A DNA stretch of 32,000 nt from Candidatus Jordarchaeales archaeon (GTDB taxonomy: Archaea > Asgardarchaeota > Jordiarchaeia > Jordiarchaeales > Freyrarchaeaceae), in NCBI GenBank assembly GCA_038889235.1, contig JAWAHN010000001.1, positions 1,034,499 to 1,066,498 of the forward strand. Direction: 5' to 3'. Both the position numbers and the translations under genes were made by a program. Positions 21,666 through 26,601 of this stretch are shown one piece after another (the stretch's first letter is position 1; each line of letters opens with the position of its first letter). The notes under the pieces were generated by a model. The model saw only the letters and a list, made by a program, of their open reading frames with translations. It ran no database searches and was not told the origin of the DNA.

Positions 21666-22256
21666 ATGTCTGCTGAATCAACCCCTCAATCGACAGTCCT
21701 TCGCTCAAAGAAAGTCGCTGAGCTCATAGAAGGTAATAGAATCATAGTTTGGGATCCAGAGGAAGGATCTAAACTGTACGGCGAAGGGTTCTACGGACAA
21801 CCTCTAGGTATACGGAAGCCCAAGACCCCCCAATTCAACAAACCATTAGAACTCTCACTTCTTGAAGCACTCTATTTGCTAGAAAAGGGGCGCATCGAAA
21901 TATACGACATGAACGACGGCCATCTCATCACGAGGAAAGAATTAGAAGAAAAAGCAGAGAAAACATACATAGACTTCAAGACAAAGTACATTGTCTACAA
22001 GGACCTAAGGGAAAAAGGATACGTGGTTAGACCGGGGCTAAAGTTCGGTGCGGACTTCTCGGTTTACGAGCATGGTCCAGGAATAGACCATGCCCCCTTG
22101 ATCGTTAGCGTAGTTCCGCTAGGAACCCAGTTAAGCCCAATAGACATAGTTAGAGCCGGCCGTCTTGCAACGTCAGTAAGGAAAAAGTTCGTGATAGCCA
22201 CTGTTGAACAGACAGGGGAACCAAAGTACTACATTTTCTCGTGGTTTAAACCGTAA
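21666..22256 (+). CDS. endA: tRNA-intron endonuclease, catalytic subunit
   Basis: RPGLKFGADFSVYEHGPGIDHA (catalytic Tyr, His), GRLATSVRK (Lys), N-domain LELSLLEALYL. Confidence 0.96.
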   Translation: MSAESTPQSTVLRSKKVAELIEGNRIIVWDPEEGSKLYGEGFYGQPLGIRKPKTPQFNKPLELSLLEALYLLEKGRIEIYDMNDGHLITRKELEEKAEKTYIDFKTKYIVYKDLREKGYVVRPGLKFGADFSVYEHGPGIDHAPLIVSVVPLGTQLSPIDIVRAGRLATSVRKKFVIATVEQTGEPKYYIFSWFKP

Positions 22257-24003: not shown

Positions 24004-25128
24004 CTAATTTCCTATACCAATACAATTCCCAACCCCGACCACGACTACTGCGTCCCCTTCACTTGTAAACCTCTCAATAATCTCTTTAACCCTTTCCTTT
24101 GCCTCCATAACCCCCTTAACAATCTCCTTCTTCATAGTGGTCAATGCCTCCTCGAGAGACATCTTGATAACTACTGCGTCAATAGCCACCTCCTCTTCCA
24201 CCGCTCCAACCTCAATCTTGTACTTATCAACCCCAGGGCCGCCTATAGCAGCCCCCACTCCTTCCACTACTTTCCCTGTGTCTTCCCCTTCAAACTTAAG
24301 TCCAGCATCGATCATAATTATTCTCCTAACTTTACCCCTTTTCTCCTTAAGAACTCGTAAGACCCCGTCGCCAGGTTTGCCAACCCTGCCGCCCGGTCCC
24401 TTTGCCCTCAAAATCACAACTTCTCTGCCCTTATACATTGCATCTGCTCGCACAAGTTCACCGTTGAAGTCCCTAAAACCTTCCTCTCCTTTAAGCTCTC
24501 TCACCAAAAGGGATGCTACTAGGGCTCCCGCGCCGTCGCCGATGGGTTTTCCATGATAGAAGGCGTTTAGAGCTTCACGGTAAGCCAGAGCTATTCTGCT
24601 GAGGAACGGAATCATAACCTGCAGTTGGGAGACCAATGCAATGTTCCCGCTCTCCCTGCTCATAATATAGTAGTGTCTCAAAATGAAAAATAACTGTCGT
24701 AATGCCGAAGCAGCTTCCAAAACCATTTCAAGGTTGGCGATACGTTCAGCGTCAGCCTGCAGGGCCACCTCTTCAATTAAGCCTCTAAACCTTATCCTTC
24801 TAACGTCCAAAAGGTGCTCCAGCCTCTTCAAAACTCCTACAGGATCTCTCTCTACTGGTTCAATGAAAACAAAGTCAAGCATTCTCTCGACAAATGCAGC
24901 CACCTCCTTATCTCCCCCAGATTCTCTAACTGCCCTAACAGCGATCTTTTTCCCTTCTTCACTCCACGCCTCAATCTGCCGCACGAAATCTCCAATCTGA
25001 AGAAGCCAAACTCGAACCTGAATTCTCGTGCCTCCTAAGATGAAGACCAAAAAGAACAACACGTAGATTAGGGTAATCAAAAGGAAAAGCGTTGGGTTTT
25101 GCTCACCGAGAAGTTGCAGCTGCAACAT
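24004..25128 (-). CDS. DUF1512 family protein
   Basis: N-terminal TM, IEPVERDPVGVLKRLEHLLD, KPIGDGAG, KGPGGRVGKPG, IDAGLKFEGE, GVGNCIGIG. Start moved to ATG 25128 (AGGTG SD) because the longer ORF runs through the tRNA. Confidence 0.85.
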   Translation of the reverse strand: MLQLQLLGEQNPTLFLLITLIYVLFFLVFILGGTRIQVRVWLLQIGDFVRQIEAWSEEGKKIAVRAVRESGGDKEVAAFVERMLDFVFIEPVERDPVGVLKRLEHLLDVRRIRFRGLIEEVALQADAERIANLEMVLEAASALRQLFFILRHYYIMSRESGNIALVSQLQVMIPFLSRIALAYREALNAFYHGKPIGDGAGALVASLLVRELKGEEGFRDFNGELVRADAMYKGREVVILRAKGPGGRVGKPGDGVLRVLKEKRGKVRRIIMIDAGLKFEGEDTGKVVEGVGAAIGGPGVDKYKIEVGAVEEEVAIDAVVIKMSLEEALTTMKKEIVKGVMEAKERVKEIIERFTSEGDAVVVVGVGNCIGIGN

Positions 25129-25255
25129 AGACTGACACCTGGAACCAAAAAGGAAAAGCATGCATTTTAAAATATCGGTTTCGGTGAGAAATAGCAGGAA
25201 AATTCGCCGAAAAAAGAGTAAGTATATCCCCCCGCCCGGATTTGAACCGGGGACC

Positions 25256-25277
25256 TTAGGCTGAAACTCACTAACTA
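25256..25277 (-). other. tRNA-Tyr intron 3 (22 nt, 44/45)
   Basis: Central GGGU/GCCU (two G-U pairs), bulges AU^U and AA^G, outer GAC/GUC. The 5' strand lies inside intron 2. Confidence 0.55.
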
Positions 25278-25278
25278 A

Positions 25279-25304
25279 TACCCGTCTCCGGTTTTTCCGG
25301 AGTT
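25279..25304 (-). other. tRNA-Tyr intron 2 (26 nt, 43/44)
   Basis: Inner hairpin CUCCGG-AAAAA-CCGGAG, central ACCG/CGGG (one A.G mismatch), bulges AG^A and UA^U. Confidence 0.65.
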
Positions 25305-25310
25305 CTCGGT

Positions 25311-25356
25311 GTCTGTGCAAGCGCCGGCTGGGCTCGCCGCGCCTGAGGGCACAGCG
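25311..25356 (-). other. tRNA-Tyr intron 1 (46 nt, canonical 37/38)
   Basis: Strict BHB: CUGU/ACAG central helix, bulges AG^C and AC^A, outer CUCGG/CCGAG. Confidence 0.9.
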
Positions 25357-25506
25357 CTACAGCCGAGCGCTCTACCACTAAGCTACGGGGGGATGCCATT
25401 ATCATCACTTATGTTCCTGTTATTTATTTTTTTCGAGCTCGAAAGGTTATTATTTTTATACCATAAATTTCACTTAGAACGTTTTCCGTGTCATTTGGGT
25501 GGTATT

Positions 25507-26601
25507 TTGCCGTCTGTCGAGCTAGTTAATGTTTCTAAACGCTTTGGAAGGATAGTTGCTGTTGATAACGTTAGTTTGAGGATAGAAGATGGCGAGTATG
25601 TTGCCCTAGTGGGCCCGAGTGGTTGTGGTAAAACAACAACCTTGCGTATAATTGCTGGATTGGTGAAACCCGACGAAGGTAAAGTTTTAATAGACGGCGT
25701 GGATGTTAGCAACCTCCCCCCAGAGGAAAGGGGGATTGGGTTTGTTTTCCAGAACTACGCGCTGTTTCCCCACATGACTGTTTGGGAAAACGTGACCTAT
25801 GGACCGTGGGTTAGAGGGTGGGACGAGCAAAAGATGAGTGACGTTGCAAACGAAGTGCTGTCTCTCGTTAATTTACGCGGCCGTGAAGACGCTTACCCTA
25901 GAGAGTTAAGTGGGGGAATGCAGCAGCGTGTGGCCTTATCGAGAGCACTAGCAACCGAAACCCGCCTTCTCTTGCTAGATGAACCACTTGGAGCACTAGA
26001 CGCTAGGATAAGAGTTGAGTTAAGGCGTGAGATTAGGCGGCTTGTTAAAGACCTAGAAGTAACAGCTATTCACGTTACTCACGATACAGAAGAAGCCCTG
26101 ATGGTTAGCGATAAGATAGTTGTTATGAGGCGGGGAAAGATTGAGCAGGTAGGCTCTCCAAAAGAAATTTACCTTAGGCCGAAAACGCTATTCGTGGCGG
26201 GTTTTGTGGGTGAAATGAACTTCCTCAGCGGGATTGTTATCGAGAAAACCAGTGGTTTAGCCACCGTTAAGTTGGAAGGGAGTAAAGACTGTGTTGTCGC
26301 AAAAGACGAAAATGATGCGTTTAAAAAAGGTAGCAGAGTGGTCGTCGCTATAAGGCCAGAAAATGTCACTATAGGAAACGTTGAAGAGGCCTCCCCGAAG
26401 GGCGAAATTGAAGACCTATTCTTTTTAGGCTCATTCATCAAAGCAGTGGTACTACTCACCAACAATGTGAGAGTGGCAGCATACGTTTCTCCCAACGCCT
26501 CGATAAAAGTCGGCGACCGTGTCTCAATATTCTTTGACCCTATGGATTGCATACTTTTTGCGCATCCAGGCATCCCGTTGGAGGAAGCCCTGAAGGGCTA
26601 A
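25507..26601 (+). CDS. ABC transporter ATP-binding protein (PotA/MalK/CysA-like, C-terminal TOBE)
   Basis: GPSGCGKTT, FQNYALFPH, LSGGMQQR, LLLLDEP, HVTHD. Start moved to TTG 25507 because the longer ORF overlaps the tRNA. Confidence 0.92.
   Translation: MPSVELVNVSKRFGRIVAVDNVSLRIEDGEYVALVGPSGCGKTTTLRIIAGLVKPDEGKVLIDGVDVSNLPPEERGIGFVFQNYALFPHMTVWENVTYGPWVRGWDEQKMSDVANEVLSLVNLRGREDAYPRELSGGMQQRVALSRALATETRLLLLDEPLGALDARIRVELRREIRRLVKDLEVTAIHVTHDTEEALMVSDKIVVMRRGKIEQVGSPKEIYLRPKTLFVAGFVGEMNFLSGIVIEKTSGLATVKLEGSKDCVVAKDENDAFKKGSRVVVAIRPENVTIGNVEEASPKGEIEDLFFLGSFIKAVVLLTNNVRVAAYVSPNASIKVGDRVSIFFDPMDCILFAHPGIPLEEALKG

What the first reader, a model, noticed from the sequence alone, without database searches (positions are those of the whole stretch)
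25227..25392. tRNA-Tyr with three introns, including a 1-nt exon and obligatorily ordered splicing
Seen: besides the canonical 46-nt 37/38 intron, 49 nt occupy the variable region where one nucleotide belongs. I found no single BHB that removes them correctly. Two successive BHB cuts (22 nt, then 26 nt) leave one U and give the typical archaeal CCGAG-UGGUC-CCCGG. The 22-nt intron's 5' helix strands (GAC, GGGU) lie inside the 26-nt intron, so it would have to be removed first. Established: multi-intron tRNAs at non-canonical sites are known in Thermoproteales. Inference: a single-nucleotide exon and an enforced splicing order in this lineage.
Basis: partly seen in the sequence, partly recalled or inferred. 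Interest (0 to 1): 0.68.

Follow-up and report, generated by a model that had tools for sequence, protein, structure and literature searches.

The report
One-base exon between two tRNA introns
The only tyrosine tRNA gene found in this intron-rich Asgard archaeon has three protein-spliced introns, and two of them sit one base apart and share pairing bases, so they can probably be removed productively in only one order; this is a neat variant of known ordered tRNA splicing, and no RNA data were available to test it.

Summary
Window 25392..25227 (minus strand) is a real tRNA-Tyr(GUA) gene. It has a canonical 46-nt intron and 49 nt where variable-loop position 44 belongs. No single bulge-helix-bulge (BHB) motif removes those 49 nt.

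- A relaxed hBH motif (GAC+GGGU paired with GCCU+GUC) removes 22 nt (25277..25256).
- An HBh'-type motif (CCG/CGG plus the CUCCGG/CCGGAG hairpin) then removes 26 nt (25304..25279).
- U25278 stays, giving UGGUC.

Both motifs, and this register only, are kept in the two other species of the genus, although the 22-nt intron has diverged there to 37 and 29 nt. The same-family ortholog lacks these introns and encodes UGGUC directly. Removing the 26-nt intron first leaves no usable motif.

Weak points:
- There are only three orthologs and no compensatory changes.
- 7% of shuffled inserts give an equally good path.
- The second motif has an A.G mismatch and low predicted occupancy.
- No RNA data were available.

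The lineage is Jordarchaeales/Freyarchaeia (Asgard), not Thermoproteales. Multi-intron tRNAs there, and ordered splicing in Crenarchaeota, are already published. I found no report of a one-base exon between BHB introns. This scan had already noted the same feature, apparently in an ortholog on other DNA.

The parts
25227..25392 (-). tRNA-Tyr(GUA) gene, 166 nt, predicted mature length 72 nt without CCA
   Evidence: Rfam RF00005 46.5 bits; cloverleaf read; the only Tyr gene found in the genome
25357..25392 (-). Exon 1: tRNA positions 1-37 (acceptor 5' strand, D arm, anticodon stem 5' strand, CU-GUA-G)
   Evidence: identical in G001
25311..25356 (-). Canonical 37/38 intron, 46 nt, complete hBHBh' motif
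   Evidence: H CUGU/ACAG 4/4, bulges AG|C and AC|A, h1 5 bp, h2 2 bp
25305..25310 (-). Exon 2: A38 plus the anticodon-stem 3' strand CCGAG (positions 38-43); ACCG also serves as strand H of the second variable-region motif
25279..25304 (-). Intron B, 26 nt, at position 43/44, removed second. Relaxed HBh' motif: H (A)CCG/CGG(G), bulges AG|A and UA|U, h2 CUCCGG/CCGGAG after an A.A mismatch. It carries strands h1 (GAC) and H (GGGU) of intron A's motif.
   Evidence: homologous 27- and 28-nt introns in G001 and G003; an intron of the same build at the same site in Odinarchaeia
25278..25278 (-). Predicted one-base exon, U44 of the mature tRNA
   Evidence: Only the UGGUC register keeps 3 of 4 central pairs in all three species; the same-family ortholog G004 encodes CCGAG-UGGUC-CCCGG directly
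25256..25277 (-). Intron A, 22 nt, at position 44/45, removed first. hBH motif: h1 GAC/GUC, H GGGU/GCCU, bulges AU|U and AA|G.
   Evidence: the interior diverges to 37 and 29 nt in G001/G003 while AGCCUA and its partner GGGY stay
25227..25255 (-). Last exon: G45-G46-U47-C48, T arm, acceptor 3' strand, discriminator A; no encoded CCA
25210..25215 (-). Run of six U, 12 nt after the discriminator; probable transcription stop (inferred)
   Evidence: read
21666..22256 (+). Context: gene for the catalytic-type subunit of the tRNA-splicing endonuclease EndA (196 aa), the enzyme expected to cut all three introns
   Evidence: Pfam PF01974 + PF02778; best solved relatives are the catalytic subunits of crenarchaeal two-subunit EndA, 3p1z_B and 3ajv_B, E 4e-47; second paralog on contig C3

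Best explanation
This is a functional tRNA-Tyr(GUA) gene of a Jordarchaeales/Freyarchaeia (Asgard) archaeon. It has three introns cut by the tRNA-splicing endonuclease EndA and rejoined by the RNA ligase.

The canonical 46-nt intron at 37/38 has its own complete BHB motif.

The other two introns sit at 43/44 (intron B, 26 nt) and 44/45 (intron A, 22 nt), with only U25278 between them. Their motifs overlap. Intron A's motif pairs GAC-GGGU, which lies inside intron B, with GCCU (inside A) and GUC (positions 46-48). Intron B's motif pairs CGG(G), the same G run, with C39-C40-G41 of the anticodon stem, next to its own CUCCGG/CCGGAG hairpin.

In the primary transcript the 7-bp motif of A and the anticodon stem win. 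A is cut out, and U25278 is ligated to G45. This frees the G run, the B motif can form, and B is cut after G43 and after A25279. The result is CCGAG-UGGUC-CCCGG. U25278 is never a free nucleotide: it is first the 3' end of one piece and then the 5' end of the other.

If B were cut first, A would lose its motif and the RNA would be a dead end.

Shown: the gene, the motifs, their conservation, the dead end. Inferred: the cuts themselves, their order, the ligation step between them.
For: - Gene and canonical BHB.
- Intron A motif: H 4/4 and h1 3 bp at exactly the site that leaves GGUC. It is kept in G001 (H 4/4, h1 3) and G003 (H 4/4, h1 2), although the intron interior is not alignable and its length is 22/37/29 nt. 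It shows one one-sided change, U.G to C-G.
- Intron B motif: the UGGUC register gives x||| in all three species. The GGUC register drops to 2/4 in G001 and G003, and the AGGUC register gives 1/4 everywhere.
- Pairing is 95-96% for both motifs and falls to 38-57% when the partners are slid by one column.
- The same-family ortholog G004, with only the canonical intron, has UGGUC. It differs from the predicted mature tRNA at one base, U13/C13.
- B-first leaves no one-step motif that gives a correct loop in any of the three species.
- Relaxed motifs of both kinds are used elsewhere in the same gene family. The G003 D-loop intron has H 4/4, h1 0, h2 7. The Odinarchaeia tRNA-Tyr has an intron at the same 43/44 site with bulge AG|A, h2 7 bp with a compensatory change, and only 2/4 central pairs.
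- Enzyme: two EndA paralogs, the one in the window being closest to the crenarchaeal catalytic subunits of the broad-specificity type (PMC2724299, PMC4033280).
- At 75 C the predicted occupancy of A's central helix is 0.24-0.28, against 0.04-0.05 for B's, in the primary transcript.
Against: - No RNA evidence.
- Only three related sequences and no compensatory change in either motif.
- 7% of shuffled inserts yield a comparable path, and relaxed criteria give 13-17 spurious paths per species.
- Intron B's central helix has an A38.G mismatch and no outer helix h1.
- B's inner helix h2 starts after an A.A mismatch in the window and after a bulged G in G001, where it failed my automatic filter.
- After A is removed, the predicted occupancy of B's central pairs stays at 0.02-0.12, because the anticodon stem and a GAC/GUC mini-hairpin compete.
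- Nothing in B's motif needs A to be gone, so mis-ordered cutting is possible in principle.
Confidence: 0.6

Rival explanations
1. The same two motifs are used, but the U is lost and the mature variable loop is the 4-nt GGUC. This could happen if both introns are cleaved before any ligation, which would release U25278 as a mononucleotide. It could also happen if step 2 uses the shifted register (H ACCG/GGGU, bulge AU|G).
For: In the window the shifted register has 3 of 4 central pairs. It also has a 3-bp outer helix formed with the last three bases (GAC) of the still-unspliced canonical intron. Four-nucleotide variable loops exist in class I tRNAs (general knowledge).
Against: The shifted register falls to 2 of 4 pairs in G001 and G003, and it has no inner helix. 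All intron-free orthologs examined have 5-nt loops. The outer helix would require the canonical BHB to be disrupted.
Confidence: 0.12
2. The product is UGGUC, but there is no obligatory order. The broad-specificity enzyme recognises each splice-site bulge or hairpin loosely, so intron A can still be removed after intron B, or the order is stochastic.
For: The Odinarchaeia intron at the same site has only 2 of 4 central pairs, which suggests Asgard EndA tolerates very weak motifs. B's motif is fully present in the primary transcript.
Against: After B-first, the best candidate for removing A has 1 of 4 central pairs in all three species. The conserved GGGY/GCCU and GAC/GUC pairing would have no purpose if A did not depend on intron B's sequence.
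Confidence: 0.12
3. Position 44 is A25304 (mature AGGUC). The 48 nt would be removed by one excision or by a second step that leaves A instead of U.
For: A44 opposite G26 is common in tRNAs (general knowledge). A distant Asgard ortholog (G039) has AGGUC.
Against: The AGGUC register has 1 of 4 central pairs in all three species. No single-step motif was found. The nearest intron-free ortholog has U44.
Confidence: 0.07
4. The gene is a decaying pseudogene, or the insert is kept as a long variable arm.
For: Standard tRNA finders miss or mis-model it.
Against: The exons are identical in G001 and nearly so in G003 and G004, while the introns diverge. It is the only Tyr tRNA gene found. Synteny is kept within the genus. 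The insert varies from 49 to 65 nt, which a structural arm would not tolerate. Archaeal tRNA-Tyr is class I (PMC4033280 lists long arms for Ser, Leu and bacterial Tyr only).
Confidence: 0.03

Closest known systems
Multiple-intron pre-tRNAs of Crenarchaeota/Thermoproteales with nested introns and sequential splicing (Sugahara et al. 2007; Tocchini-Valentini et al. 2009, as cited in PMC3728597)
   Same: Several BHB introns sit in one tRNA. A later motif becomes available only after an earlier intron is removed, giving cycles of two cuts and one ligation. The enzyme is of the broad-specificity type.
   Different: Here the two introns are side by side, not one inside the other. They are separated by a single exon base. 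They are linked by a shared strand (GGG) that serves as the exon-side strand for one motif and the intron-side strand for the other. The lineage is Asgard. I could not read the two primary papers, which are not held in the library, so I cannot exclude that a similar case is figured there.
Multi-intron tRNA genes of Freyarchaeia (=Jordarchaeia) and Atabeyarchaeia (Valentin-Alvarado et al. 2024, PMC11291895, Supplementary Data 4)
   Same: It is the same class of organisms. In that study 92-95% of tRNA genes contain introns, with up to four introns per gene at non-canonical sites. Atabeyarchaeia tRNA-Tyr is listed with three introns.
   Different: That paper lists coordinates only, with no splice motifs, order or exon sizes. 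Its soil Freyarchaeia tRNA-Tyr has a single intron. The twin variable-region introns are therefore specific to the window's genus, as far as sampled.
Variable-region (43/44) intron of Odinarchaeia tRNA-Tyr (L005:1501-1644, L004:1391-1536)
   Same: It has the same tRNA, the same 5' splice site (AG|A after G43), a 17-nt hairpin next to the bulge and a weak central helix.
   Different: It is a single intron of 24-25 nt. The product is GGGUC. No second intron is inserted behind it.
Single-nucleotide exons in other splicing systems (Arabidopsis PMC4674806; placozoan cox1 PMC5436844; Fusarium CYP621A PMC12940212)
   Same: An exon of one base lies between two introns.
   Different: Those are spliceosomal or organellar self-splicing introns in protein-coding genes. 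Here both introns are protein-spliced BHB introns in a tRNA.

Membership tests
tRNA (Rfam RF00005), tyrosine acceptor | Cloverleaf scoring above the family's gathering score | tested here: met
   46.5 bits against a cut-off of 29, full model 1-71
tRNA (Rfam RF00005), tyrosine acceptor | Anticodon GUA in a 7-nt loop after intron removal; class I variable loop | tested here: met
   CU-GUA-G|intron|A read. The predicted mature sequence folds with anticodon and T arms. It is 71/72 identical to the spliced G004 ortholog.
Canonical archaeal BHB intron (hBHBh') | Two 3-nt bulges separated by a 4-bp helix and flanked by two outer helices (PMC4033280) | tested here: met
   Met by the 37/38 intron: H 4/4, h1 5, h2 2. 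Not met by introns A and B.
Relaxed BHB motifs (hBH / HBh' / BHL) of broad-specificity EndA | A 4-bp central helix plus only one outer helix | tested here: met
   Intron A: H 4/4, h1 3, h2 0 (hBH type) in the window. The same holds in G001, and in G003 with h1 2 and h2 2.
Relaxed BHB motifs (hBH / HBh' / BHL) of broad-specificity EndA | Intron B: a 4-bp central helix plus the inner helix | tested here: inconclusive
   There are 3 of 4 central pairs (A38.G mismatch) in all three species. The inner helix is 6 bp after an A.A mismatch (window), 1 bp + bulged G + 6 bp (G001), or 5 bp (G003). The geometry is plausible but imperfect.
Relaxed BHB motifs (hBH / HBh' / BHL) of broad-specificity EndA | Actual cleavage after the second bulge nucleotide by EndA | not testable with these tools
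   Needs RNA or enzyme data
Ordered (hierarchical) splicing of multiple-intron pre-tRNA | One intron's motif depends on sequence or structure changed by removal of another | tested here: met
   A's strands h1 and H lie inside B, and B-first leaves at most 1/4 central pairs for A. The two motifs share G25283-25281 and are mutually exclusive.
Ordered (hierarchical) splicing of multiple-intron pre-tRNA | Introns nested one inside the other | tested here: not met
   A (25277..25256) and B (25304..25279) are adjacent, separated by U25278, and not nested.
Two-subunit (alpha-beta)2 EndA with broad specificity | Two different EndA genes, one of them catalytic-type and close to the crenarchaeal alpha subunits | tested here: met
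   Two paralogs of 196 and 195 aa, each with both Pfam domains. The window copy is closest to 3p1z_B, 3ajv_B and 2zyz_B.
Two-subunit (alpha-beta)2 EndA with broad specificity | Crenarchaea-specific loop needed for activity | tested here: inconclusive
   The query aligns without a gap to 3p1z_B across GQPLGIRKPKTPQF / GQPLDVEKPRGADF. I did not map the loop on a structure.

The most novel reading that the evidence does not exclude
A true one-base exon exists in a protein-spliced tRNA. U44 would be carried through two successive cut-and-ligate cycles, so the ligation of the first splice must come before the second cleavage. If so, in intron-dense Asgard archaea the endonuclease and the ligase would work as a coupled, ordered cascade on overlapping motifs. 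New introns could also settle into the recognition structure of older ones, using intron sequence as their 'exon' partner.
Probability: 0.5. Interest if true: 0.55.

Novelty: new variant of a known kind. Interest (0 to 1): 0.45.

Why it matters
If the prediction holds, this is the smallest possible exon in the endonuclease/ligase splicing system. It would also be a clean natural test case for how order is imposed when splice motifs overlap. The outcome (UGGUC, GGUC or a dead end) directly reports whether ligation precedes the next cleavage. It also shows how a second intron can be gained next to an older one by pairing with that intron's sequence, which bears on how Asgard tRNA genes became so fragmented. 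In practice, standard tRNA finders miss or mis-model such genes. Only 12-13 tRNA genes are detected in this 2.14-Mb genome, so annotation of these lineages needs multi-step intron models.

Tried and rejected
Only two bacterial tRNAs resembled the target.
- I looked for more orthologs through the syntenic DUF1512 gene.
- G002, the fourth genome of the genus (83% complete), showed no tRNA-Tyr.
- BLAST of introns A, B and the canonical intron against the whole genome gave no other copies, so there is no sign of recent intron transposition.
- A single-step excision, the AGGUC register and the GGUC register were rejected on motif conservation.
- RNAfold occupancies did not support step 2. I kept the model on comparative grounds and flag this as a weakness.
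- The primary papers by Sugahara 2007, Tocchini-Valentini 2009 and 2011, and Marck & Grosjean 2003 are not held in the library. Their content is cited second-hand.

Full report
**What is there.** The Rfam tRNA model matches window 25392..25227 on the minus strand over its full length (46.5 bits, E 4.6e-07). ARAGORN finds nothing with default settings.

Read directly from the sequence, the gene has:
- acceptor stem CCCCCCG/CGGGGGG and discriminator A
- D arm GCUU-AGUGGUA-GAGC
- anticodon stem CUCGG/CCGAG with loop CU-GUA-G|...|A
- T arm CCCGG-UUCAAAU-CCGGG
- no encoded CCA
- a run of six U 12 nt downstream

The canonical intron (25356..25311, 46 nt) has a complete bulge-helix-bulge motif: central helix CUGU/ACAG, bulges AG|C and AC|A, outer helices of 5 and 2 bp.

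Between the anticodon-stem strand CCGAG (25309-25305) and the T-stem strand CCCGG (25251-25247) lie 53 nt where 5 belong.

**Which organism.** The closest homologs of the neighbouring DUF1512 protein are labelled Jordarchaeales and Freyarchaeota (83% and 70% identity), and earlier notes of this scan say the same.

Valentin-Alvarado et al. 2024 (PMC11291895) report that 92-95% of tRNA genes of Freyarchaeia (=Jordarchaeia) and Atabeyarchaeia contain introns. Over half have several, often at non-canonical sites. Their table lists up to four introns per gene, and a single intron in the soil Freyarchaeia tRNA-Tyr.

In this 2.14-Mb genome the Rfam model detects only 12 tRNA genes and ARAGORN only 13, which fits heavy fragmentation.

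The genome has two EndA paralogs (196 and 195 aa, each with both Pfam domains). One lies in the window at 21666-22256, 3 kb from the tRNA. It is closest to the catalytic subunits of the two-subunit crenarchaeal enzymes (3p1z_B, 3ajv_B, 2zyz_B). That is the type known to cut relaxed motifs (PMC4033280, PMC2724299).

**Relatives.**
- *G001 and G003 (same genus).* They carry the gene in the same DUF1512 / tRNA-Tyr / ABC-ATPase synteny. G001 has identical exons. G003 has two further introns: a D-loop intron of 29 nt with H 4/4, h1 0, h2 7, and a T-loop intron of 20 nt with a complete motif.
- *G004 (same family).* It has only the canonical intron and encodes CCGAG-UGGUC-CCCGG. It differs from the window's exons at one base.
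- *Odinarchaeia.* They have one 24-25-nt intron in the same place.

In an alignment of the variable region, the 5' part (intron B) is well conserved. The interior of the 3' part is not alignable (22, 37 and 29 nt). The last six bases, AGCCUA, are invariant.

**The two motifs.** I coded the BHB geometry, checked it on the canonical intron and scanned all cut pairs. The geometry on each strand is: outer helix, 4-nt central strand, 3-nt bulge cut after its second base, other outer helix.

No single excision gives a 4- or 5-nt loop in any of the three species.

*Intron A* (25277..25256, 22 nt):
- central helix GGGU (25283-80) / GCCU (25261-58), 4/4
- outer helix GAC (25286-84) / GUC (25254-52)
- bulges AU|U and AA|G

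This motif is kept in G001 (4/4, h1 3) and G003 (4/4, h1 2), with one U.G to C-G change.

*Intron B* (25304..25279, 26 nt), after A is gone:
- central helix A38-C39-C40-G41 / CGGG (25284-81), with three G-C pairs and an A.G mismatch
- bulges AG|A and UA|U
- inner helix CUCCGG/CCGGAG after an A.A mismatch
- no outer helix

This register gives x||| in all three species. The register that would give GGUC drops to 2/4 in G001 and G003. The register that would give AGGUC has 1/4 everywhere.

The product is therefore CCGAG-U-GGUC, the same as the intron-free ortholog.

**Order.** A's exon-side strands (GAC, GGGU) lie inside B. The two motifs share G25283-25281, so they cannot form together. If B is removed first, the best candidate for removing A has 1 of 4 central pairs in each species, and nothing else gives a correct loop. 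A productive pathway therefore needs A before B.

Two qualifications are needed. First, B's own motif is fully present in the primary transcript, so the order is imposed only by competition. At 75 C the predicted occupancy is 0.24-0.28 for A's central helix and 0.04-0.05 for B's. Second, U25278 survives only if the first ligation precedes the second cleavage. Otherwise it would be released as a mononucleotide and the loop would be GGUC.

**How strong is it.** The gene, the three-intron layout and intron A are solid. Intron B's borders and the U are probable, not proven.

Points against:
- 7% of shuffled inserts give a path of two steps or fewer that scores as well.
- Relaxed criteria produce 13-17 spurious paths per species.
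- There are only three sequences and no compensatory change.
- G001's inner helix has a bulged G and failed my filter.
- After A is removed, folding predictions give B's central pairs only 0.02-0.12.

Points in favour:
- This is the only path shared at homologous positions.
- AGCCUA is conserved next to a diverged interior.
- The outgroup has U44.
- The Odinarchaeia intron has the same build at the same site: AG|A bulge, a 7-bp inner helix with a compensatory C-G to U-A change, and only 2/4 central pairs.

**Compared with what is known.** Ordered removal of nested introns in crenarchaeal pre-tRNAs is established. Soma et al. 2013 (PMC3728597) describe it, citing Sugahara 2007 and Tocchini-Valentini 2009. 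The relaxed hBH and HBh' motifs are also established (PMC4090602, PMC4033280).

This case differs in three ways. The introns are adjacent rather than nested. They are separated by one base. One motif uses the other intron as its 'exon' strand.

A full-text search found single-nucleotide exons only in spliceosomal and organellar systems. The primary tRNA papers were not readable here.

This scan had already reported a one-base exon between two tRNA-Tyr introns in 'another genome' with five introns. That matches the G003 ortholog, which I analysed independently. It had also reported abutting introns in Odinarchaeia tRNA-Val. The feature is thus one point on a continuum in Asgard tRNAs.

**Not done.** No RNA evidence could be obtained.

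Noticed in passing
window 21666-22256 (+); second copy L152:1474-2061 (-): The catalytic-type EndA gene lies 3 kb from the tRNA-Tyr gene. It aligns without a gap to Aeropyrum pernix EndA (3p1z_B) across the GQPLGIRKPKTPQF stretch, where the crenarchaeal extra loop is said to lie. A second, more divergent paralog sits on contig C3, which suggests a two-subunit enzyme.
   Followed up: partly
whole genome G000: Only 12 tRNA genes reach the Rfam cut-off and ARAGORN finds 13 in a 2.14-Mb genome that is 95% complete. Most tRNA genes are probably too fragmented for standard finders.
   Followed up: partly
L007:1452-1676 (+) (G003, same genus): The orthologous tRNA-Tyr has five introns: the three found here plus a 29-nt D-loop intron (H 4/4, h1 0, h2 7) and a 20-nt T-loop intron (H 4/4, h1 5, h2 3). 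Its anticodon stem has a compensatory C27-G43 to G27-C43 change.
   Followed up: yes
L005:1501-1644 (+) and L004:1391-1536 (-) (Odinarchaeia): tRNA-Tyr has a 24-25-nt intron at the same 43/44 site with only 2/4 central pairs. Its strand CGAG is a copy of anticodon-stem positions 40-43 and could pair 4/4 with positions 27-30. The Jordarchaeales strand CGGG could do so too, with one G.U. The meaning is unknown.
   Followed up: partly
L005:1501-1644 (+), tRNA nt 77 and 115: A strong BHB-like motif (H 4/4, h1 3, h2 4) joins a site inside the canonical intron to the 3' end of the variable-region intron. It would delete the anticodon-stem 3' strand. It is weaker in the second Odin species (3/4). It could be a decoy or chance.
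   Followed up: no
L005:934-1063 (-): A neighbouring Odinarchaeia tRNA (anticodon UUU) has a 26-nt variable-region intron. By hand I could fit a motif for it at 46/47 (CGGU/GCCG, bulges GG|A and AA|U) that gives UGGUC.
   Followed up: partly
window 25279-25304 vs 25235-25251: The minimum-energy fold pairs the two CCGG halves of intron B's hairpin with the two CCGG strands of the T stem. This alternative fold would compete with both the T arm and the splice motifs.
   Followed up: no
L002:1521-1600 (-), L007:1564-1636 (+): In G001 and G003 the ends of intron B pair as AUG...CAU, including the first intron base and the exon U. This pairing is absent in the window sequence.
   Followed up: no
window 24004-26601: The order DUF1512 gene / tRNA-Tyr / ABC-transporter ATPase is conserved in the genus (82-87% protein identity in G001 and G003). 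An A/T-rich box (AAAAAAAUAAAUAA, 25433-25420 on the minus strand) lies 28-41 nt upstream of the tRNA 5' end and could be the promoter.
   Followed up: partly
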